Source: Atopobiaceae bacterium (GTDB taxonomy: Bacteria > Actinomycetota > Coriobacteriia > Coriobacteriales > Atopobiaceae). From it: 64,000 nt of DNA. The stretch spans positions 17,728-81,727 of the forward strand of contig JAFWIE010000058.1 of the NCBI GenBank assembly GCA_017533825.1. Reading direction: 5' to 3'. Below the pieces are notes generated by a model, which saw nothing but the letters and a program-made list of their open reading frames with translations, was not told the origin of the DNA and ran no database searches. Positions within the stretch are counted from its first letter, which is position 1. Each line of letters opens with the position of its first letter. This document shows positions 19,616 through 53,846 of the stretch, one piece after another. The position numbers were made by a program, and so were the translations under genes.

Positions 19616-19703
19616 GGAGGGGTGGCAGAGTGGTTGAATGCAGCGGTCTTGAAAACCGCCGGGCCGAGAGGTCTCGCGGGTTCGAATCCCGCCCCCTCCG
19701 CCA
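19616..19703 (+). tRNA. tRNA-Ser (anticodon UGA), CCA encoded
   Basis: GGAGGGG acceptor stem pairs with CCCCTCC. Anticodon loop CTTGAAA, long variable arm, T-loop GGTTCGAATCC. Confidence 0.9.
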
Positions 19704-24201: not shown

Positions 24202-24278
<77 letters not shown>

Positions 24279-35309: not shown

Positions 35310-35399
35310 TGGCGGAGGAGGAGGGATTCGAACCCTCGTGACCCGAAAGGGCCAAACGGTTTTCGAGACCGCCGCATTCAACCACTCTGCCACCCCTCC
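35310..35399 (-). tRNA. tRNA-Ser (anticodon CGA), CCA encoded
   Basis: The reverse complement reads GGAGGGGTGGCAGAGTGG..GGTCTCGAAAACC..long variable arm..GGTTCGAATCC..CTCCTCCGCCA. Confidence 0.9.
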
Positions 35400-35443
35400 G
35401 TAGGGTGACGCGACGCCCCAAACGGGACGCCGCGGCTAGTTTC

Positions 35444-35535
35444 TGGCGGAGAGTCGGGGATTCGAACCCCGGATGCGCTTTCGGCGCATACACGATTTCC
35501 AATCGTGCTCCTTCGGCCAGCTCGGACAACTCTCC
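35444..35535 (-). tRNA. tRNA-Ser (anticodon GGA), CCA encoded
   Basis: The reverse complement reads GGAGAGTTGTCCGAGCTGG..CACGATTGGAAATCGTG..long variable arm..GGTTCGAATCC..ACTCTCCGCCA. Confidence 0.9.
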
Positions 35536-38964: not shown

Positions 38965-39040
38965 TGGTGGAGACGATGGGGATCGAACCCACGACCTCAG
39001 GCTTGCAAAGCCCGCGCTCTCCCAGCTGAGCTACGTCCCC
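38965..39040 (-). tRNA. tRNA-Ala (anticodon UGC), CCA encoded
   Basis: The reverse complement reads GGGGACGTAGCTCAGCTGGGAGAGC..CTTTGCAAG..GGTTCGATCC..CGTCTCCACCA. The G3:U70 pair is present. Confidence 0.9.
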
Positions 39041-39096
39041 GTAATAACCGCCCCAGCGGCGACTCGGCTCACGCTGGGGCGGCTATTGTCAAAGGA

Positions 39097-39173
39097 TGGT
39101 GGGCCTGACAAGGCTCGAACTTGTGACCTCCCGGTTATCAGCCGGACGCTCTGACCAACTGAGCTACAGGCCC
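39097..39173 (-). tRNA. tRNA-Ile (anticodon GAU), CCA encoded
   Basis: The reverse complement reads GGGCCTGTAGCTCAGTTGGTCAGAGC..GGCTGATAACCG..GGTTCGAGCC..CAGGCCCACCA. Confidence 0.9.
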
Positions 39174-47643: not shown

Positions 47644-48165
47644 CTACGTATCCTCAAGCTTACGGCGCGCCAACGTGGCGCACATCGCGCGAGAGACGCT
47701 TTGGCGAAGGCCATCGGGGAGTTCGGACGTCAACTCCCTCACGCGCTCGAGTTCCAGCGCGCTCAGTTCCCGGGGCTTGCTCGGCACTCGCGTTGCGGTG
47801 GTGGGCGCCTTCGGCCTCGAGGTGGAGGGGGGACGGCCCACGTCGAAGCGAATGTCGCTCACCGCGATTCCCGCGCGGGCGATGCGGGCGAGGTAGAGGT
47901 CTTTGTTGGTGCCAAGTTCTTGCGCGAGGAGACCCGAGTCAAGGCGTACGACCATGATGGGGTCCACGCCCGCGCGACCGGACTTGCGCAGCCACACGCC
48001 CGTGGTATGGGCACGCTCGCGGTCCCCGTTTGCCTGAAACCACGCACGTGCGGCACGCTGGGCATCCGAGAGCTTCGACGTTCCCGCCGCCCCGAACAGC
48101 GCACCAACAAGGTCGCCCGCTCGCGCGACGCCCCGATTCGCTCCGTCAACAACCGCCAAAGTCAA
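47644..48165 (-). CDS. dciA: DUF721 / DciA-like protein (syntenic with the actinobacterial helicase-operating protein between recF and gyrB)
   Basis: 173-aa ORF that overlaps the recF stop by 20 nt. The call rests on its position between recF and gyrB, its size and its basic character. Confidence 0.6.
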   Translation of the reverse strand: MTLAVVDGANRGVARAGDLVGALFGAAGTSKLSDAQRAARAWFQANGDRERAHTTGVWLRKSGRAGVDPIMVVRLDSGLLAQELGTNKDLYLARIARAGIAVSDIRFDVGRPPSTSRPKAPTTATRVPSKPRELSALELERVRELTSELPDGLRQSVSRAMCATLARRKLEDT

Positions 48166-49237
48166 TCACCTCCGCGCACTCGAGCAGCTCGGGAGGGAAG
48201 TATTGGAGGTTCGCGGTGGTGATGACCGTCTGGATCCTCCCGACGACGAACTCCGTGACGGCCGCCCTCCTGCGTGCGTCCAGCTCGCTCATGACGTCGT
48301 CGAGCAGCAGCAGCGGCTGCTCCCCCACGACGTCACGCGCGACGGCGACCTCCGCCATCTTCCAGGCCAACGCCACCGAGCGCTGTTGCCCTTGGCTTCC
48401 GAAACTCCGCGCATCGCGTCCCCCGATGGAGAACGACACGTCATCACGATGGGGCCCCACGAGCGTCACGCCACGTCGCAGCTCCTCGGCGCGGCGCTCG
48501 GCGATGGCATCCAGGATGAGGTCACGCAGCTCGTCGCGGGTGAGCCCTGCGGCATCGGGCCCAATCGAGCAGTCGTACACGCACTCGAGGGGCTCGTCAG
48601 CCACGCGCTCGTACACGCGGCGTATCTGCGTGCGCAGACGCTCGAAAAGCGCCATCCGCGCATGCAGCAGGGTGGCGCCGCCCAATGCCACGGCGCCGTC
48701 CCACGCCTCGAGCATCCCGAGGTCGACGTGGGCCTCCTTAAGCAGGCGGTTTCGCTGCTCGACCGCTCGCGCATACGCCTTGGAAACCTTGCGGTAGCCC
48801 GCGCTCGCCTGCGCCCCGAAGGCGTCGAGGGCGTCTCGCCGGGCGCGGGCCGACCCCTTGACCAGAGAGAGGTCGTCGGGGCAGAAGAGCACCGACATGA
48901 GCGTCGCGGAGAGGTCAGCCGGCCGACAGGGCTTGCCGTTGCGCTCGTACGTGCGCCGCCTGCCCCGCGCGGCGCGGCAGCACACGTCTATGACGCGCCC
49001 GTCCCCCTCGAGGCGAGCCTTCGCCCGCCCCTCGTCCGCGCCGTCGCGGACGAGCTCGGTCGTTCGCGGGTGCCTGAACGACGTTCCCGCAGTCAACAGC
49101 TGAAGCGCCTCGACGGTGTTCGTCTTGCCCGTCGCGTTCGGGCCGCACAGCACGTTGAGGCCGGGCGTGAGCTCGATGGTGCGCTCCTCGAAGCTGCGCC
49201 AGTCGCTCATCGCGACGCAGGTGACGGTGAGCCCCAC
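48146..49237 (-). CDS. recF: DNA replication and repair protein RecF
   Basis: 363-aa ORF (GTG start) with Walker A GPNATGKTN, the signature GSQGQQRS and LLLLDDV. Confidence 0.95.
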   Translation of the reverse strand: MGLTVTCVAMSDWRSFEERTIELTPGLNVLCGPNATGKTNTVEALQLLTAGTSFRHPRTTELVRDGADEGRAKARLEGDGRVIDVCCRAARGRRRTYERNGKPCRPADLSATLMSVLFCPDDLSLVKGSARARRDALDAFGAQASAGYRKVSKAYARAVEQRNRLLKEAHVDLGMLEAWDGAVALGGATLLHARMALFERLRTQIRRVYERVADEPLECVYDCSIGPDAAGLTRDELRDLILDAIAERRAEELRRGVTLVGPHRDDVSFSIGGRDARSFGSQGQQRSVALAWKMAEVAVARDVVGEQPLLLLDDVMSELDARRRAAVTEFVVGRIQTVITTANLQYFPPELLECAEVIDFGGC

Positions 49238-49241
49238 GTGG

Positions 49242-50345
49242 CTACATCCTTACGGGCATGAGGAGGTACAGATAGTTGATGGAGGCATACGACTTGAAGA
49301 TGGCTGGCTGCATGGAGCTGAGCAGCTCGAGCGTCACATCCGCATCGGACGAGACGGCCGCCACGCAGTCGAGCACGAAGTGGAAGTTCAGCGCTATGGA
49401 CATCGACTCGCCCTCGATCTCCACGCCCATCATCTCGCTCGCCTCGCCCTGATCGGGTGACGAGGCGGAGAGGCGCAGCACCCCTCCGTCGGCGTCCGCG
49501 TCGAAGCGCACGGAGGGGTTCGACTGCGCGATGACCGAGACGCGGCGGAGCGCCTGCGCCAGCTGCTGGGCGTCAATGCGCACGACGGCATTCTGGGAGG
49601 TGGGGAGGAGTTGGCGGAAGTTGGGGAAGTTGCCCTCGATGCGCCGCGAGACGTAGGTGGTGCTTCCGAACGAGAAGACGACCTGGCTCGCGGTGATGCC
49701 AATGGTGATGCGCTCCGTCATGGACGGCAGCGACAGCACGTCGTGGAACGTGACGCCCGGTACAATGGCCTCAAACGCCTCGTCGGACTGAGACGTCTCG
49801 GTATTGGAGTCGCACACCGCCAGACGGTACGAGTCCGTGGCCACCAAGCGAATGGTGTTGTTCTCCACCGTGAGCAGCACGCCAGAGAGGATGGGGCGGG
49901 AGGTGTCCTTGCTCGTCACCTTGTACACCTTGTCCACCATGCTGGAGAGGAGCTCGCTCGGCAGCTCGATGGAGCGATCCGGCTCGATGGATGGGAACTC
50001 GGGGAAGTCGGCGGGGGAGAGTGTGTTGAGCCTGAAGTGCGACCGCTCGCACGACAGCCGCATCTGGGTGCCGTCGTCCTCGAAGGAGACCGCTGAATCC
50101 GGAAGGTTTTTCACCACGTTGGAAAGTGTCTTGCCCGAGACGACCGTCTCGCCCGGCTCCTCCACGTTTGCCGCGATGGCATGACGGATTGAAATGTTGC
50201 CGTTGGTGCTCTGGAACTCGATGCAGCCGTCCTCGGCTGTGATTTTGACCCCTGCCAGAATCGGCTGGCCTGATGTGGACGCGATGCCCTTGGAGACGAC
50301 GCTGAGCGCGCGCATGAGCGCGGACTGGCTTACGATGAACTTCAT
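49242..50345 (-). CDS. dnaN: DNA polymerase III beta sliding clamp
   Basis: 367-aa ORF starting MKFIVSQSALMRALSV, in the conserved position after dnaA. Confidence 0.95.
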   Translation of the reverse strand: MKFIVSQSALMRALSVVSKGIASTSGQPILAGVKITAEDGCIEFQSTNGNISIRHAIAANVEEPGETVVSGKTLSNVVKNLPDSAVSFEDDGTQMRLSCERSHFRLNTLSPADFPEFPSIEPDRSIELPSELLSSMVDKVYKVTSKDTSRPILSGVLLTVENNTIRLVATDSYRLAVCDSNTETSQSDEAFEAIVPGVTFHDVLSLPSMTERITIGITASQVVFSFGSTTYVSRRIEGNFPNFRQLLPTSQNAVVRIDAQQLAQALRRVSVIAQSNPSVRFDADADGGVLRLSASSPDQGEASEMMGVEIEGESMSIALNFHFVLDCVAAVSSDADVTLELLSSMQPAIFKSYASINYLYLLMPVRM

Positions 50346-50608
50346 CTCTCCCCCTGTTCTTATTAATTAGTTCTTAGAGAATACAGTAGTAGTAACAAGG
50401 TATGTTCAAATGTGGACAACATTGTATTCACGCAGGTAGATGCCGGTATTATGCGGTCGCTTCCCTCAACGTGTTCTCGCGGTGTTCGACTTTCTTCACA
50501 CAATCGAAAGACGCTTTGAACACTTGTTGTGGGTTTGTATGCTCCTCTCTACACGGCGTCTACGGGTTTTGAACACGTCGTATTACGGATGTGGTCGCTG
50601 GTTTGGGG
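50346..50608. other. dnaA-dnaN intergenic region: candidate oriC segment
   Basis: 263-nt non-coding gap. It contains an AT-rich stretch (ttcttattaattagttcttagagaatacagtagtagtaa), one consensus actinobacterial DnaA box and four GAACAC/GTGTTC hexamers. Confidence 0.5.
50411..50419. promoter_or_regulatory. DnaA box TGTGGACAA (= TTGTCCACA)
   Basis: Exact match to the TTGTCCACA consensus used by high-GC Gram-positive bacteria. Confidence 0.6.
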
Positions 50609-52072
50609 CTACTCGAGGATCTGGTCGCGGATGCGCGCGACGCGGTCCTGGAGCACGCGATCCTCGCGCATGCCCTCCTCGATGACGCCGATGCTGTGCT
50701 TGACGGTGGCGTGGGTGCGGCCGCCGAAGTGCTTGCCGATGTCGGCGAGGGTGTTGTCGGTGAGCTCGCGGGTGAGCCAGATGGCAATGTGGCGGGGCTC
50801 CATGAGCTCCTTGTTGCGCTTCGCGCCCACGAGTTGCGCGTGGTCGATCCCGTAGCTTCGCTCGACGGCCTCTTGGATCTTGTCCACCGTGACGCGCCGC
50901 TGCCCGGACGGCCACTTCTGCTCGGCCGCGCTGACCACGTCTTCCTCGGTCAGGTGCTCTCCGGCCGCTTCGCGCTGGTAGGCAAGCATGAGGCACGACT
51001 GCACGTAGCCCTCGATGACGCGGATGTTGGTGCCCGCGAGTTCCGCCATGCGTCGCCTGAGACTCTCGTCGATGTGCGCGTCGATGCCGGGGACGCGCTG
51101 CTCACGGGCGTCCGCCCGCATACGCTCGTAGAAGGCGTCGATGAGCTGCAGCTTGAGCTCGTAGTCGGGCACCTGGATGGAGACCGTCATGCCGGAGTCG
51201 AGCCTGCTCGTCACGCGCTCGTCGAAGCGCGACTGGCCCATACCCAGCTCCGAGGGAGTGCGGTCGGCAGCTAGAACGATCTGCTTGCCGTGGTTAATGA
51301 GGTAGTTGAAGGTGTCGTAGAAGAACCCGATGGTGCCCGCCGCCGTGCTCATGAGCTGTATGTCGTCGATGATGAGCACGTCGATGGCGTGGTAGTTCGC
51401 GGCGAGGGCCTCGGCTGCGCCGGTGCGCGCGTTCTTCATGGCCTTGGTGTAGTCATCGATGAAGTCCGTCGCAACGCGATAGGCGCAGAGCCGCTCGGGA
51501 TCGTTCTGGGCGATGTAATTCTGTATGGCGCGGAGCAGGTGCGTCTTTCCGAGCCCGCTTTTGCCATATATGAAGAGTGGGTTATAGTTACGGCTTCCGT
51601 TGGCGACCTGCTTCGCGGCGTCGAGGGCGAACTTGTTCTGTGGGCCTTCCACGAAGCGGTCGAACGTGAGCGTCGAACCCACGTCGCTGAGGTCTTCCAC
51701 GAGCGGATTTGGCTCCGGCGCAGCGCGTTTCTCGACCGTGGCCTCTGGAGGTGGCACGGGTGCAGGGGCTGGTCGCATCGGAGCGCGCTCGGGACGTTGC
51801 CTCTTGGGCTCCGCGCGACCGAGCTCAACCACCACACTCATCTGGGTGAATGCGGCGTCGGTCGCCGCGTCGTCAAGGTCCTGCGCGATGCGAGCGAGCG
51901 TACGCTGCACGAATCGCGAGGTGGTGAGCACGTGCAGAGACTCATCGTCCATCGAGGAGGCTTTGCAGCTCTTGAGCATGGCGGTGGTCGAAGCGGGGAG
52001 GTCGCCGGCCTCGAGGGTCGCAATGATGTCGTCCCAAAGCGCCTCGGCATCCGATTCGTTTGTGGTATCCAT
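50609..52072 (-). CDS. dnaA: Chromosomal replication initiator protein DnaA
   Basis: ORF 50609..52105. The start MDTTNESD at 52072 follows AAGGAG. Contains Walker A GKSGLGKTHLL and domain IV HTH GKHFGGRTHATVKHS. Confidence 0.95.
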   Translation of the reverse strand: MDTTNESDAEALWDDIIATLEAGDLPASTTAMLKSCKASSMDDESLHVLTTSRFVQRTLARIAQDLDDAATDAAFTQMSVVVELGRAEPKRQRPERAPMRPAPAPVPPPEATVEKRAAPEPNPLVEDLSDVGSTLTFDRFVEGPQNKFALDAAKQVANGSRNYNPLFIYGKSGLGKTHLLRAIQNYIAQNDPERLCAYRVATDFIDDYTKAMKNARTGAAEALAANYHAIDVLIIDDIQLMSTAAGTIGFFYDTFNYLINHGKQIVLAADRTPSELGMGQSRFDERVTSRLDSGMTVSIQVPDYELKLQLIDAFYERMRADAREQRVPGIDAHIDESLRRRMAELAGTNIRVIEGYVQSCLMLAYQREAAGEHLTEEDVVSAAEQKWPSGQRRVTVDKIQEAVERSYGIDHAQLVGAKRNKELMEPRHIAIWLTRELTDNTLADIGKHFGGRTHATVKHSIGVIEEGMREDRVLQDRVARIRDQILE

Positions 52073-52134
52073 TGGTCTCCTTGTAGAAGCATGGTGATGA
52101 AACAACAGTATATGATGAAAACCGCGCTCGGGGA

Positions 52135-52143
52135 TGTGGAGAA
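52135..52143. promoter_or_regulatory. DnaA box TGTGGAGAA (= TTCTCCACA) upstream of dnaA
   Basis: One mismatch to TTGTCCACA. It fits the TT(G/C)TCCACA variant. On the minus strand it lies about 30 nt upstream of a TATACT hexamer. Confidence 0.45.
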
Positions 52144-52202
52144 TGTAGAAAAATCGGCATCTGCCCGCATCGTGTCAACATTCACGAGTCCACGGCGTGG
52201 GG

Positions 52203-53267
52203 TCAGCGCTGTAGATACGCCTGTCCCATGGAGGTGAGTCGACGCTTCTGCCCGTCCTTCCTCACGAGGCCCTGGTCCTCGAGCGCCTGCAGCTCGCGCG
52301 TCCAGGTTGGCTGCGACCCGCCGAGGGCCCGCGCGAGGTCGGAGGGCCCGACGGAATCGTGCGTTCGGAGGTATTGAAGAATCGCCTCGCCGCGCGAAGA
52401 GATGTTGACCCAGGGGAAGCCTCCGCCGGACGTGCCGGACTCGTCGCCAGGTGCTGCGGCACCCCAGGGTGGAGCCTGAGCTGGTGCCTGGGCAGCGTAG
52501 GGCGCCTGCCAGGACTGCGGAGGCCAGCCCTGCTGTTGGTAGGGCTGCTGGGGCCAGCCCTGCTGTGGTTGCTGCCAGCCTTGTTGCGCGGGGTACGGTT
52601 GTTGCTGCCAGCCCTGCGGCGGTTGCTGCTGGGGCCAGCCCTGCGTTGCCTGTTGCCAGCCCTGCTGCGGTGCCTGCGGTGAGTTCTGCTGGTACGAGGG
52701 CCAGGGCTGCTGCGTCTGGGTGGGGGAGAGCGACGCCGCTGAGGCTTGGGGGCCTGCGGATGCGGATATCGTCACGACGGTGCCGCCGGCCATGTTGTCC
52801 TCGATCAGGAGCGAGCCGCCCTTGTCGGCCATGTACTGTTGGACGTAGGGGAGGCCCGATCCAACGCCGCGGATGTAGCGGCGCATCTCCTCGGTTGCCG
52901 ACGTCGTGCCGTATTGCAACGCCCGGTCCTTCTGGCGGATGCCGGGGCCTTGGTCCGAGAACCGTATGGTGTTGCCGTGGTCGAGGATCGAGACCGTCGG
53001 TTCTATGAAGTAAGCGTGAATGAGGTTCTCGACGATTTCGCGAATCACCATGAAGGGAATCATCCCACCTTGTGCTTGGGCGAGCTGGGTGACCTGCAGG
53101 GTGATTTCCTCGAGGTATGCGCGCACGTCCTTGGGCGCAACCTCGACGACGCGCGGCGCGGCCGCGGCATCGTCATAGACGGCGATGCGCGCCGGATGGC
53201 GCGGCTCGAGCGGATTCTCTGCCGGAGCCTGTCCGTTTTCGACGAAGGGATAGAAGTCCTCTGCCAC
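52203..53267 (-). CDS. GHKL-type ATPase domain / QGW-repeat linker / winged-HTH protein
   Basis: ORF 52203..53753. The N-terminal part of that ORF crosses an AT-rich non-coding-looking stretch and the rpmH promoter, so the start is placed at GTG 53267; the ATG at 53330 is an alternative. Bergerat-fold motifs IREIVENLIHA, SDQGPGI and GVGSGL. Seven QGW(P/Q)QQ-like repeats. C-terminal ILQYLRTHDSVGPSDLARALGGSQPTWTRELQALEDQGLVRK. Confidence 0.65.
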   Translation of the reverse strand: MAEDFYPFVENGQAPAENPLEPRHPARIAVYDDAAAAPRVVEVAPKDVRAYLEEITLQVTQLAQAQGGMIPFMVIREIVENLIHAYFIEPTVSILDHGNTIRFSDQGPGIRQKDRALQYGTTSATEEMRRYIRGVGSGLPYVQQYMADKGGSLLIEDNMAGGTVVTISASAGPQASAASLSPTQTQQPWPSYQQNSPQAPQQGWQQATQGWPQQQPPQGWQQQPYPAQQGWQQPQQGWPQQPYQQQGWPPQSWQAPYAAQAPAQAPPWGAAAPGDESGTSGGGFPWVNISSRGEAILQYLRTHDSVGPSDLARALGGSQPTWTRELQALEDQGLVRKDGQKRRLTSMGQAYLQR

Positions 53268-53611
53268 GCGTAACCCGAACCTTTCTACAAACCATGAACG
53301 TTGGAAGAAAACTTTCAAGACAATTCTCATGTGAAAGAAAGTTTTCAACGGAAGTGAATAACGTGATGAAAACTCGTGAATATTGCCTTCCAACAACGCG
53401 AAAATTCTAGCACGAAGCATGCACATAAACGACTCTTTGAAATATTTCTTGCGCGCGAGGTGGGCAATGGCGCGATCTGGGGCTAATACTACGTCGGTTG
53501 AGAGCCTCTCGGTCACCGAGAGTTCCCGCGAGGTCACGCAGCGACGGCCCTGCCCAATGCGTACCGGATCCGGCGTGGTGGATGCAAGCCACACATACAT
53601 CACATCGGTTC

Positions 53612-53641
53612 TTGACAGACGCGCCACGGCTCCCCTACAAT
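53612..53641 (+). promoter_or_regulatory. rpmH promoter (TTGACA - 18 nt - TACAAT)
   Basis: Consensus -35 at 53612..53617 and near-consensus -10 at 53636..53641, 65 nt upstream of the rpmH ATG. Confidence 0.65.
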
Positions 53642-53705
53642 CGGGAAACTTGAGTCTAACCTGCTGGGATAGTGCCCAGTCCACGGCTTTGCAACAGGAG
53701 GAACA

Positions 53706-53846
53706 ATGAAGCGCACGTATCAGCCCAACAAAAGGAAGCGCGCGAAGACCCACGGCTTCCGCGCCCGCATGGCAACCAAGGGTGGTCGTCAGGTACTGGC
53801 CCGCCGCCGCGCGAAGGGCCGCAAGCGCCTTACCGTCTCGGACTAG
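53706..53846 (+). CDS. rpmH: 50S ribosomal protein L34 (46 aa), missing from the ORF track
   Basis: Manual translation gives [56 protein letters not shown]. Confidence 0.95.

What the first reader, a model, noticed from the sequence alone, without database searches (positions are those of the whole stretch)
52203..53267. GHKL ATPase / QGW-repeat / winged-HTH protein inserted between dnaA and rpmH
In most bacteria rpmH and dnaA are direct divergent neighbours flanking or adjoining oriC. Here a ~355-aa protein lies between them. It combines a Bergerat-fold ATPase core (IREIVENLIHA, SDQGPGI, GVGSGL) with a ~90-aa Gln/Trp/Pro linker built from seven QGW(P/Q)QQ-like units, and a C-terminal MarR-like winged helix. 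At the DNA level the linker appears as near-tandem ccagccctgctg repeats around 52480..52700, which could be slippage-prone. An ATP-dependent DNA-binding protein encoded inside the origin region is a candidate regulator of initiation or origin organisation. That is speculation.
Basis: partly seen in the sequence, partly recalled or inferred. Interest (0 to 1): 0.65.

Follow-up and report, generated by a model that had tools for sequence, protein, structure and literature searches.

The report
Conserved ATPase-wHTH partner gene of dnaA
An uncharacterised protein that joins a histidine-kinase-like ATP-binding domain to a DNA-binding winged helix is encoded directly in front of the replication-initiator gene dnaA wherever the DNA reached far enough to tell (148 relatives plus five distant ones; every relative that could be named is a Coriobacteriia), so it is a strong but untested candidate for a lineage-specific partner or regulator of chromosome replication initiation.

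Summary
Window 52203..53267 (- strand) encodes a 354-aa protein, here called X. It has three parts: an intact histidine-kinase-type GHKL ATP-binding core (about residues 20-170), a 118-aa disordered Gln/Pro/Trp linker (6 QGW units plus 1 QSW), and a C-terminal winged helix.

X is not a local insertion. It belongs to a tight, unnamed family of only 523 clusters at 50% identity among 1.8 billion. Every member that could be named is a Coriobacteriia.

In 148 of 148 related loci whose DNA reached far enough, and in five distant members looked up one by one, X lies immediately upstream of dnaA on the same strand. Gaps are as short as 12-21 nt. In at least 18 loci the block "DnaA-box cluster, X, dnaA, unwinding element" is inverted as one piece, so the conserved pairing is X-dnaA, not rpmH-X.

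The ATPase core is better conserved than DnaA, DnaN or RecF. DnaA boxes lie between X's candidate promoter and its start codon, and no terminator-like site separates X from dnaA.

Best reading: an ATP-controlled DNA-binding protein co-expressed with DnaA that acts on dnaA expression or initiation. Function is untested. The suggestion of slippage-prone repeats is not supported.

The parts
52203..53267 (-). Gene X: 354-aa protein with a GHKL ATPase, a disordered linker and a winged helix (GTG start, TGA stop)
   Evidence: ORF and translation. Start fixed by the homologue N-terminal consensus MAxDFYPFV. Pfam domains.
52758..53210 (-). ATP-binding core, residues about 20-170. Secondary structure: strand-strand-helix, N-box helix (E77, N81, H84), G1 box (D105-x-G-x-G), ATP lid, G2 box (G134-x-G-x-G), G3 box (G162-T163)
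   Evidence: HATPase_c E 3.8e-8. Domain model pLDDT 79.7, pTM 0.78. Foldseek best matches are histidine-kinase catalytic domains, E 2e-6 to 1e-4. ATP-site residues invariant in 55 diverse members.
52404..52757 (-). Disordered Q/P/W-rich linker, residues 171-288, with 6 QGW units plus 1 QSW. At the DNA level it shows imperfect repeats of period 15 and 24
   Evidence: pLDDT below 50 for residues 172-282. Composition. Tandem Repeats Finder: about 3 copies at 62-71% matches. Not alignable between species.
52206..52403 (-). C-terminal winged helix-turn-helix, residues 289-354. Candidate recognition helix is SQPTWTRELQALE
   Evidence: Pfam HVO_A0261_N, HTH_IclR, MarR, HTH_20. pLDDT 90-97. Invariant residues S318, T321, W322, R324 within Coriobacteriales.
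53268..53412 (-). Candidate X promoter and leader. Extended -10 element TGcTAGAAT at 53404-53412, followed by DnaA-box-like sites (53364-53372, 53342-53350, 53281-53289) before the start codon
   Evidence: The TGnTAnnAT element and the order of boxes recur in relatives. Box scan. The promoter is inferred, not mapped; the consensus scan found no sigma-70 match on this strand.
53307..53346 (.). Conserved inverted repeat GAAAACTTTC-N20-GAAAGTTTTC (arms 53337-53346 and 53307-53316). Each arm overlaps a DnaA-box-like site. Candidate operator
   Evidence: Found in 23 of 50 non-redundant Coriobacteriales loci, with spacer 19-21 nt, and only in the rpmH-X spacer. The spacer sequence is conserved too, and arm changes are not compensatory by eye; no covariation count was run.
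52073..52202 (-). X-dnaA spacer (130 bp) with three DnaA-box-like sites (52144-52152 TTTTCTACA, 52135-52143 TTCTCCACA, 52113-52121 TTTTCATCA), a TTGACA hexamer and the dnaA Shine-Dalgarno sequence. No terminator-like site
   Evidence: Sequence. Box scan. Terminator scan negative on the - strand. TGTTGAAAA is present in this spacer in 32 of 55 non-redundant relatives.
50609..52072 (-). dnaA. The likely start is ATG 52072, after AAGGAG; the mechanical ORF starts at TTG 52105
   Evidence: ORF. Sequence. tblastn synteny.
50346..50608 (-). dnaA-dnaN spacer, the unwinding part of oriC. Boxes TTGTCCACA (50411-50419) and TTTGAACAT (50402-50410), a 6-nt spacer, DnaA-trios TTA CTA CTA CTG TAT ... (50375-50395, - strand), and an AT-rich stretch running to the dnaN start
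   Evidence: Sequence. The same box-box-trio layout occurs in 36 distinct sequences from relatives. It fits the published definition of the basal unwinding system (PMC8287927).
53612..53846 (+). Divergent rpmH promoter (TTGACA-18-TACAAT, 53612-53641) and rpmH (53706-53846)
   Evidence: Promoter scan, 11 of 12 positions matched. Both hexamers are conserved as k-mers in relatives. ORF.

Best explanation
X is the first gene of a two-gene X-dnaA unit that is a fixed part of the chromosomal origin module in the named Coriobacteriia families.

The protein is soluble. It has a histidine-kinase-like ATP-binding domain with no phospho-acceptor domain. A flexible low-complexity linker ties that domain to one winged-helix DNA-binding domain.

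Proposed mechanism:
1. X is transcribed together with dnaA from a promoter whose leader carries DnaA boxes, so X and DnaA levels are coupled and set by DnaA itself.
2. X binds DNA in the origin and dnaA control region through its winged helix. The candidate site is the inverted repeat in its own leader, which overlaps DnaA boxes.
3. ATP binding or hydrolysis in the GHKL domain switches X, either by dimerisation or by engaging a partner such as DnaA. That tunes dnaA expression and/or DnaA assembly at oriC.

Shown here: the domain architecture, intact ATP-site motifs, the disordered linker, the conserved X-to-dnaA pairing, movement of the module as one unit, the flanking DnaA-box clusters, the position of the unwinding element, and very strong purifying selection on the ATPase core.

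Inferred: co-transcription, DNA binding and its target, ATP dependence, and any effect on replication.
For: - Pairing. X lies directly upstream of dnaA on the same strand in 148 of 148 loci where the contig continues. The same holds in Raoultibacter and in five distant members, with gaps of 12, 21, 60, 71 and about 300 nt (the last locus is a fragmented gene call).
- Moves as a unit. At least 18 loci carry the module inverted relative to rpmH and dnaN, and X stays with dnaA. In L150 the box-and-trio element also stays downstream of dnaA.
- No terminator-like site lies between X and dnaA in the window.
- DnaA boxes. The clade's box, TT[AT]TCNACA, was defined by its position next to the DnaA-trios. 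Sites with at most one mismatch occur 9 times in the 831 bp of the three spacers against 0.6 expected. They lie between X's candidate -10 element and its start codon in the window and in relatives.
- Selection. The ATPase core is 76% identical across Coriobacteriales, against 55% for DnaA domains III-IV, 61% for DnaN and 57% for RecF. In remoter members the figures are 55% against 36-41%.
- The ATP-site residues E77, N81, D105, G107, G109, G134, G136, G138 and G162 are invariant in 55 diverse members; T163 is invariant in the 22-sequence Coriobacteriales set.
- The family is tight and distinct from ordinary kinases: 523 clusters at E <= 1e-3 among 1.8 billion.
- It is absent from plasmid and phage collections.
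Against: - Origin-proximal gene order is unusually frozen in bacteria. rpmH, rnpA, yidC, jag and rsmG also stay near dnaA without any role in initiation, so adjacency is weaker evidence here than elsewhere.
- The inversion could simply reflect recombination between the inverted DnaA-box clusters that flank the block.
- No experiment, transcript map, binding site or interaction supports any step.
- The X-dnaA spacer holds a TTGACA hexamer and DnaA boxes, so dnaA may also have its own promoter.
- The recognition helix differs between subclades, so one shared DNA target is unlikely.
- Many sampled members lack the long linker, so it is not needed for the core function.
- Histidine-kinase-type catalytic domains are not known to dimerise on ATP the way GyrB and MutL do (general knowledge).
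Confidence: 0.5

Rival explanations
1. X is an ordinary, probably autoregulatory, transcription factor with a nucleotide-binding sensor domain. Its targets have nothing to do with replication. It sits next to dnaA only because gene order around the origin is frozen.
For: NCBI annotation calls members 'MarR family transcriptional regulator' or 'ATP-binding protein'. The winged helix is of a generic regulator type. Unrelated genes (rpmH, rnpA, yidC, jag) are equally fixed in this neighbourhood. The recognition helix varies between subclades.
Against: X stays with dnaA, not with rpmH, when the block inverts. Gaps to dnaA are as short as 12-21 nt. The core is more conserved than DnaA and DnaN, which is unusual for an accessory regulator. 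No copy was found away from dnaA among more than 165 loci retrieved by sequence alone.
Confidence: 0.25
2. X is a DNA-tethered protein kinase or partner-switching factor of the SpoIIAB/RsbW type. The stand-alone kinase-like domain binds, and perhaps phosphorylates, a protein partner such as DnaA or a sigma or anti-anti-sigma factor.
For: The catalytic-type domain has no DHp domain, as in anti-sigma serine kinases. There is a weak full-domain match to TIGR01925 SpoIIAB (E 0.008). A helix precedes the N-box helix, which I recall from memory is also the case in SpoIIAB; this was not compared here. Invariant surface-type residues outside the ATP site (R27, Y31, D32, E53, R76, H84, R102, K113, D157, N158) could form a partner interface.
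Against: The score is far below the SpoIIAB family cut-off (16 against 135 bits). No match to HATPase_c_2 was listed. No gene with a STAS or sigma-factor Pfam domain appears among the called neighbours of the five distant loci, and the window's own neighbours are dnaA and rpmH. No fusion of such kinases to a winged helix is known to me.
Confidence: 0.12
3. X is an architectural origin or nucleoid protein. Its Q/P/aromatic low-complexity region drives self-association or condensates on origin DNA, and the ATPase controls turnover.
For: The linker is 118 aa, has 10 Trp and 4 Tyr among Gln and Pro, and is almost uncharged. Such regions recur in the family, either as the linker or as an N-terminal extension of up to 260 aa. 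Long linkers co-occur with a conserved N-terminal FYPFV peptide.
Against: 276 of the 481 sampled members have linkers under 40 aa that are not Q/P-rich (this sample includes two searches aimed at the Eggerthellaceae). The low-complexity region therefore cannot be the core function. Its sequence is not conserved.
Confidence: 0.08
4. X is a recent insertion of a mobile or defence gene into the rpmH-dnaA spacer.
For: Only the first impression that rpmH and dnaA are usually direct neighbours. The winged helix weakly matches Csa3/CasR models.
Against: X is found in all three named families at the same position. No family member is present in 72,556 plasmids or 50,697 phage records. Only the winged helix matches PADLOC models, not the ATPase. 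GC content inside X matches the flanking genes.
Confidence: 0.01

Closest known systems
Catalytic (CA, HATPase_c) domain of two-component histidine kinases such as EnvZ, CpxA, PhoQ, KinB
   Same: Best fold matches (Foldseek E 2e-6 to 1e-4) and best sequence matches. N, G1, G2 and G3 boxes are present. The G2 box is of the GxGxGL type.
   Different: No DHp/HisKA domain, no conserved phospho-acceptor His, no sensor or membrane segment. Fused to a winged helix instead. The N box reads E-I-V-E-N-L-I-H-A, closer to MutL's E-L-V-E-N-S-L-D-A (weak MutL matches). TM-scores are only 0.4-0.47.
Anti-sigma serine kinases SpoIIAB and RsbW (stand-alone HATPase_c_2 proteins)
   Same: A kinase-like ATP-binding domain of about 140-170 aa that works without a DHp domain and acts by binding a partner protein. 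Weak match over the whole domain (TIGR01925, E 0.008).
   Different: Score far below the family cut-off. No STAS or sigma-factor partner gene nearby. X carries a DNA-binding domain and is tied to dnaA.
DIP2311 / COG2865-type regulators (AlbA_2, HATPase_c_4, winged helix; PDB 3lmm)
   Same: A GHKL-like domain followed by a winged helix in one chain. Highest TM-score normalised to the query for the full-length model (0.33-0.34, rmsd 3.6-4.2 A over 159 columns).
   Different: No AlbA_2 domain. No Pfam match to HATPase_c_4. Sequence identity 14-16%. Not linked to dnaA.
Lineage-specific regulators of DnaA or oriC (YabA, SirA, Soj, Spo0A in Bacillus; Hda, DiaA, SeqA in E. coli; HobA, HP1021 in Helicobacter; MtrA, AdpA in Actinobacteria; CcrZ in streptococci)
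   Same: The functional niche proposed for X: an accessory factor restricted to one lineage that acts on DnaA or on origin DNA (general knowledge; reviews PMC5835720, PMC5295017).
   Different: To my knowledge none of these has a GHKL ATPase and none is encoded as the conserved upstream partner of dnaA. X's function is untested.
Archaeal Orc1/Cdc6 initiators
   Same: An ATPase plus a C-terminal winged helix, encoded next to the origin it serves (general knowledge).
   Different: Orc1/Cdc6 is an AAA+ ATPase and X is a GHKL ATPase. There is no homology, and DnaA is present here and is the presumed initiator.
GHL ATPases that clamp DNA by ATP-driven dimerisation (MutL, GyrB, MORC)
   Same: The N-box signature E-x-x-x-N has Glu at the general-base position, invariant in the 55-sequence alignment and replaced by Gln in at least one distant member. 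Weak N-terminal matches to MutL. A conserved extreme N-terminal peptide (FYPFV) in long-linker members could act as a strap.
   Different: No transducer (S5-fold) domain. The second half of the domain is of the kinase type. Dimerisation was not tested.

Membership tests
GHKL / Bergerat-fold ATPase superfamily (Pfam HATPase_c, PF02518) | N box with the Mg-binding Asn, G1 box DxGxG, G2 box GxGxG, G3 box GT | tested here: met
   E77/N81, D105-Q-G-P-G, G134-V-G-S-G-L, G162-T163. HATPase_c E 3.8e-8, above the cut-off. These residues are invariant in 55 diverse members, T163 in the 22-sequence set. All 55 members match PF02518.
GHKL / Bergerat-fold ATPase superfamily (Pfam HATPase_c, PF02518) | Alpha/beta sandwich fold with an ATP lid | tested here: met
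   AlphaFold domain model pLDDT 79.7, pTM 0.78. 141 PDB matches at E <= 1e-3, and the best 50 listed are all kinase-type GHKL catalytic domains. This is a prediction, not a solved structure.
GHKL / Bergerat-fold ATPase superfamily (Pfam HATPase_c, PF02518) | ATP binding or hydrolysis | not testable with these tools
   Needs purified protein.
Two-component sensor histidine kinase | DHp/HisKA dimerisation domain with a phospho-acceptor His upstream of the catalytic domain | tested here: not met
   No HisKA-type Pfam match. Residues 1-70 contain no invariant His. The only invariant His is H84, inside the N box.
Anti-sigma factor serine kinases (SpoIIAB/RsbW, HATPase_c_2) | Match to the family model, and a STAS-domain antagonist or sigma-factor gene in the operon | tested here: not met
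   TIGR01925 scores 16 bits against a cut-off of 135. No listed Pfam hit to HATPase_c_2. The neighbours are rpmH or dnaN and dnaA.
MarR-family transcriptional regulators | Winged helix flanked by N- and C-terminal dimerisation helices in a protein of about 140-aa protein | tested here: not met
   Only the helix-turn-helix part matches (profile positions 8-49 of 59, 24.6 bits, exactly at the cut-off). Several other winged-helix families score better. No flanking helices appear in the model. The name 'MarR family', which NCBI gives at least one member, over-reaches.
Winged helix-turn-helix DNA-binding domains (general) | Three-helix bundle plus a beta-hairpin wing | tested here: met
   H291-302, H308-315, H319-331, E335-338, E341-344 at pLDDT 90-97. 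Multiple Pfam winged-helix matches. DNA binding itself was not tested.
GHL DNA-clamp ATPases (MutL, GyrB, MORC) | Transducer (ribosomal S5 domain-2 fold) following the ATPase, and ATP-driven N-terminal dimerisation | tested here: not met
   The ATPase core is followed directly by a disordered linker. MutL matches cover only residues 70-127 and are weak. Dimerisation cannot be tested here.
Proposed family: dnaA-linked GHKL-wHTH proteins of Coriobacteriia | Core signature ARIA[VIL]YD ... IRE[IV]xEN[FL]IHA ... RF[SAT]DQGPGI ... YIRGVGSG[LF]P, plus a C-terminal winged helix, encoded immediately 5' of dnaA on the same strand | tested here: met
   The window protein carries all the signatures. The pairing with dnaA holds in 148 of 148 informative loci plus the remote members.

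The most novel reading that the evidence does not exclude
X is an essential co-factor of replication initiation specific to Coriobacteriia. It would be a GHKL-type ATPase that is loaded on origin DNA through its winged helix and works with DnaA, for example by licensing or restraining DnaA oligomerisation or by coupling dnaA expression to initiation. That would be the first GHKL ATPase found in bacterial initiation control. It would also explain why this class keeps an extra gene inside the otherwise near-universal rpmH-dnaA junction.
Probability: 0.2. Interest if true: 0.85.

Novelty: new variant of a known kind. Interest (0 to 1): 0.62.

Why it matters
Control of DnaA is handled by unrelated, lineage-specific proteins in the few bacteria studied, and nothing is known for Coriobacteriia. 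This class includes Eggerthella lenta, Collinsella, Olsenella, Atopobium and Lancefieldella, which matter in gut, oral and vaginal microbiology.

A protein that is always encoded with dnaA, moves with it, sits among DnaA boxes and is more conserved than DnaA itself is a concrete candidate to test. If it acts in initiation, it adds a new ATPase class to origin biology and offers a clade-specific drug or engineering target. If it does not, it is still an unnamed, highly conserved family that current annotation mislabels as 'MarR family' or 'histidine kinase'.

The survey also gives the class's DnaA-box variant and the position of its unwinding element.

Tried and rejected
- Canonical E. coli DnaA boxes (TTATCCACA, TTNTCCACA) are not enriched: 2 matches against 1.2 expected. 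The clade's box had to be derived from relatives.
- Sequence search of solved structures gives only weak kinase and MutL matches. No close solved relative exists.
- NCBIfam has no family-specific model. PADLOC matches only the winged helix.
- Five literature searches found no description of this family or of an extra gene upstream of dnaA in Coriobacteriia. The library is open-access only, so absence is not proof.
- Mobile-element origin was rejected. There are no family members in plasmids or phages.
- Slippage-prone repeat was rejected.
- An RNA hairpin reading of the leader inverted repeat looks unlikely. Arm variants are not compensatory and the 'loop' is conserved. This was judged by eye; no formal covariation count was run.
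- An exact-sequence look-up of the window protein found nothing, so the source organism was not identified. The closest genome loci are rumen MAGs labelled Coriobacteriaceae or actinobacterium.
- The taxonomy of the most divergent high-GC members (P0255, P0222, P0270) could not be established. Their loci have Actinomycetota-like order, recF-dciA.
Full report
**1. What is in the sequence**

On the - strand the window carries recF (48146-49237), dnaN (49242-50345), dnaA (50609 to 52072 or 52105) and an ORF ending at 52203. On the + strand it carries rpmH (53706-53846), rnpA, yidD, yidC, jag and rsmG.

The ORF can be read back mechanically to a GTG at 53753. Twenty-one homologues aligned with it converge on the N-terminus M-A-x-D-F-Y-P-F-V, which fixes the start at GTG 53267 and gives 354 aa.

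Pfam finds HATPase_c at residues 73-168 (E 3.8e-8) and a set of winged-helix models at 292-353. NCBIfam has no model that reaches its cut-off.

AlphaFold2 gives a confident ATPase core and winged helix, with residues 172-282 below pLDDT 50. A domain-only model built on 55 diverse sequences reaches pLDDT 79.7 and pTM 0.78.

The linker is 118 aa. It is 29% Gln, 19% Pro and 8.5% Trp, has two charged residues, and holds six QGW units plus one QSW. At the DNA level Tandem Repeats Finder reports only about three imperfect copies of period 15 and 24.

**2. What kind of ATPase**

Foldseek places both models next to the catalytic domains of histidine kinases (EnvZ chimera 4kp4, CpxA, PhoQ, YycG). E-values are 2e-6 to 1e-4 and TM-scores 0.4-0.47. 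Sequence and profile searches of the PDB give weak matches to KinB, CpxA and the CheA P4 domain, and to the N-terminus of MutL.

The N box reads R-E-I-V-E-N-L-I-H-A. Glu77 sits four residues before the Mg-binding Asn81, which is the general-base position of GyrB and MutL. The G2 box (G-V-G-S-G-L) is of the kinase type.

In the 55 diverse members the ATP-site residues E77, N81, D105, G107, G109, G134, G136, G138 and G162 are invariant. So are residues outside the site: R27, Y31, D32, E53, R76, H84, R102, K113, D157 and N158. In one more distant member the Glu77 position is Gln.

There is no DHp/HisKA domain and no conserved histidine upstream. X is therefore not a two-component kinase. It scores far below the SpoIIAB family cut-off and has no transducer domain of the MutL/GyrB kind.

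The full-length model also resembles DIP2311 (PDB 3lmm), a GHKL-like domain followed by a winged helix. X lacks that family's other domain and its Pfam signature.

**3. The family**

A search of 1.84 billion cluster representatives with residues 1-175 returns only 523 hits at E <= 1e-3, of which 252 are at E <= 1e-30. That is a small, sharply bounded family, distinct from the very large class of ordinary kinases. Core identity stays at or above about 50% throughout.

All members inspected share the plan: variable N-terminus, core, variable linker, winged helix. Linkers range from 15 to 363 aa in my sample of 481 proteins, with a median of 30. That sample includes two searches aimed at Eggerthellaceae, which have short linkers.

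Long Q/P/aromatic linkers go together with the N-terminal FYPFV peptide. In some low-GC members the low-complexity region sits at the N-terminus instead.

The names that sources give are 'ATP-binding protein', 'MarR family transcriptional regulator', 'histidine kinase', 'hypothetical' and even 'membrane protein'.

Every member that could be placed taxonomically is a Coriobacteriia:
- Atopobiaceae: Olsenella, Atopobium, Lancefieldella, Thermophilibacter.
- Coriobacteriaceae: Collinsella.
- Eggerthellaceae: Raoultibacter, and Eggerthella sp. CAG:1427 for the low-GC branch.

Five genome bins carry Bacteroidota or Oscillospiraceae labels but have the Coriobacteriia-type locus. They look mis-binned. 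No member occurs in the plasmid or phage collections.

**4. Synteny**

I searched all fetched loci with the window's own proteins by tblastn. In 80 of 80 genome loci the order is jag, yidC, rpmH (leftward), then X, dnaA, dnaN, recF (rightward), as far as each contig reaches.

Over the 165 loci pooled from genomes and metagenomes (GC 36-62%), dnaA is the next gene downstream on the same strand in 148. The other 17 loci stop within about 950 bp of the match to the X core, too soon for dnaA to be detected.

At least 18 loci show a second arrangement: recF, dnaN (leftward), then X, dnaA, rpmH, yidC, jag (rightward). This is what inverting exactly the X-dnaA block produces. In L150, the one such locus inspected, the tandem boxes, trios and AT-rich element are still downstream of dnaA. 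There the whole module (upstream box cluster, X, dnaA, unwinding element) moved as one piece.

Five distant members looked up one by one are also directly upstream of dnaA. Gaps are 12, 21, 60 and 71 nt, and about 300 nt in one fragmented assembly. In the complete Raoultibacter timonensis genome X is the last gene called in the record. A second contig with the same protein shows a gene with DnaA domains right after it.

**5. Origin anatomy**

Canonical E. coli boxes are not enriched. K-mer counts over dereplicated spacers of the relatives reveal TGTTGAAAA, the complement of TTTTCAACA, in all three spacers. They also reveal TAGTAGTAA only in the dnaA-dnaN spacer.

Lining up the dnaA-dnaN spacers shows a constant layout: two tandem 9-mers, 6-8 nt, TTA CTA CTA CTG, then AT-rich DNA up to dnaN. 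The 9-mer next to the trios reads TTTTCAACA, TTTTCGACA, TTTTCTACA or TTATCCACA. This matches the published definition of the basal unwinding system: at least three 3'-NAN-5' trios within 16 bp of a DnaA box, often with tandem boxes (PMC8287927). It identifies TT[AT]TCNACA as the clade's DnaA box.

In the window the element is TTGTCCACA (50411-50419), TTTGAACAT, ACCTTG, and trios at 50375-50395.

Boxes with at most one mismatch occur 9 times in the 831 bp of the three spacers against 0.6 expected from the rest of the window. Against AT-rich control windows the excess is about four-fold.

Upstream of X, relatives share an extended -10 element (TGnTAnnAT; window 53404-53412). It is followed by an ordered set of boxes reaching to the ribosome-binding site. 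The divergent rpmH promoter is TTGACA-18-TACAAT at 53612-53641.

The X-dnaA spacer holds three box-like sites and no terminator-like hairpin. X therefore sits between an upstream DnaA-box cluster and dnaA, much as the B. subtilis dnaA gene sits between two box clusters. The unwinding element is on the far side of dnaA.

**6. Selection**

Against the same set of loci, the X core is 76% identical within Coriobacteriales. DnaA domains III-IV are 55%, DnaN 61%, RecF 57% and YidC 54%. In the remoter set the X core is 55% against 36-45% for the others. The winged helix is much less conserved (47% and 38%) and the linker cannot be aligned.

This pattern fits an enzymatic or partner-binding core under housekeeping-level constraint, joined to a DNA-binding domain that changes along with its site.

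**7. Interpretation**

The best-supported reading is this. X is co-expressed with DnaA from a DnaA-controlled promoter. It binds DNA in the origin and dnaA control region. It uses ATP to switch state, and so influences dnaA expression and/or DnaA action at oriC. I put this at about 0.5.

Only the architecture, the conservation and the genomic coupling are shown. Co-transcription, DNA binding, ATP dependence and any effect on replication are inferred.

The main caveat is that gene order around dnaA is frozen in many bacteria for genes unrelated to replication. The inversion could also be a by-product of recombination between the flanking inverted box clusters.

The rivals are:
- an ordinary regulator stranded in a frozen neighbourhood (0.25);
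- a SpoIIAB-like kinase or partner-switching protein tethered to DNA (0.12);
- an architectural or condensate-forming origin protein (0.08);
- a mobile insertion (refuted).

**8. Novelty**

Both domains are known. Fusions of a GHKL-like domain with a winged helix exist (DIP2311), and lineage-specific DnaA regulators are a known category. Five full-text searches found no description of this family or of this gene pair, and no curated model names it.

I rate it a new variant of a known kind, with moderate-to-high interest. It turns 'how is initiation controlled in Coriobacteriia' into a directly testable question with one named candidate.

Noticed in passing
window 50375-50419; L002-L080 dnaA-dnaN spacers: The Coriobacteriales DnaA box appears to be TT[AT]TCNACA (often TTTTCAACA, TTTTCGACA or TTTTCTACA) rather than TTATCCACA. 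I judged this from its fixed position next to the DnaA-trios. Eggerthellaceae loci such as L150 use more canonical TTATCCAC and TTTTCCAC sites.
   Followed up: partly
window 53307-53346; rpmH-X spacers of L001-L080: Both DnaA-box-like sites of the inverted repeat in the X leader carry the same 5' extension GAAA(A)G. Boxes in the other two spacers lack it. It is unclear whether the extended site is read by DnaA, by X or by both.
   Followed up: partly
L084, L086, L105, L112, L114, L117, L131, L136, L150, L157, L162 and others; L146: L146 shows a third gene order, dnaN, recF, then X, all on one strand, before its contig ends. This adds to the two arrangements counted in the report, and the locus was not examined further.
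   Followed up: partly
X homologues P0001-P0551 (residues 1-17 and the linker): An invariant extreme N-terminal peptide, (M)AxDFYPFV, occurs almost only in members with long Q/P/aromatic linkers: 109 of 141 with linkers of 100-200 aa against 0 of 276 with linkers under 40 aa. In some low-GC members the low-complexity region sits at the N-terminus instead. The peptide's role (strap, docking motif) is unknown.
   Followed up: partly
window 47644-48165 (-): The gene after recF matches Pfam DciA (E 9e-6). That gives dnaA-dnaN-recF-dciA, an order I recall as typical of Actinomycetota (from memory, not checked here). The same order is seen in remote loci L163 and L166.
   Followed up: partly
L035, L045, L047, L055, L064 (genome contigs): Five genome bins are titled Alloprevotella, Prevotella, Oscillospiraceae, Paludibacteraceae or Bacteroidaceae ('cleanbin' assemblies). 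They carry a typical Coriobacteriia X-dnaA locus, so these contigs are probably mis-binned.
   Followed up: no
window 52203-53753 (-); P0001: Mechanical ORF calling extends X to 516 aa from an upstream GTG. A public gene call for a 98%-identical relative (P0001, 408 aa) is also over-extended at its 5' end. The mechanical dnaA ORF (TTG 52105) is probably 11 codons too long.
   Followed up: yes
window 19616-19700, 24202-24275, 35313-35535, 38968-39173: Six tRNA genes, including two adjacent pairs on the - strand. There are no other Rfam matches at the gathering threshold in the 64-kb window.
   Followed up: no
L018 and L031 (same MAG, CAMXVQ01): One metagenome-assembled genome holds two different rpmH-X-dnaA loci on separate contigs. 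This probably reflects strain mixture or contamination rather than a duplicated origin.
   Followed up: no
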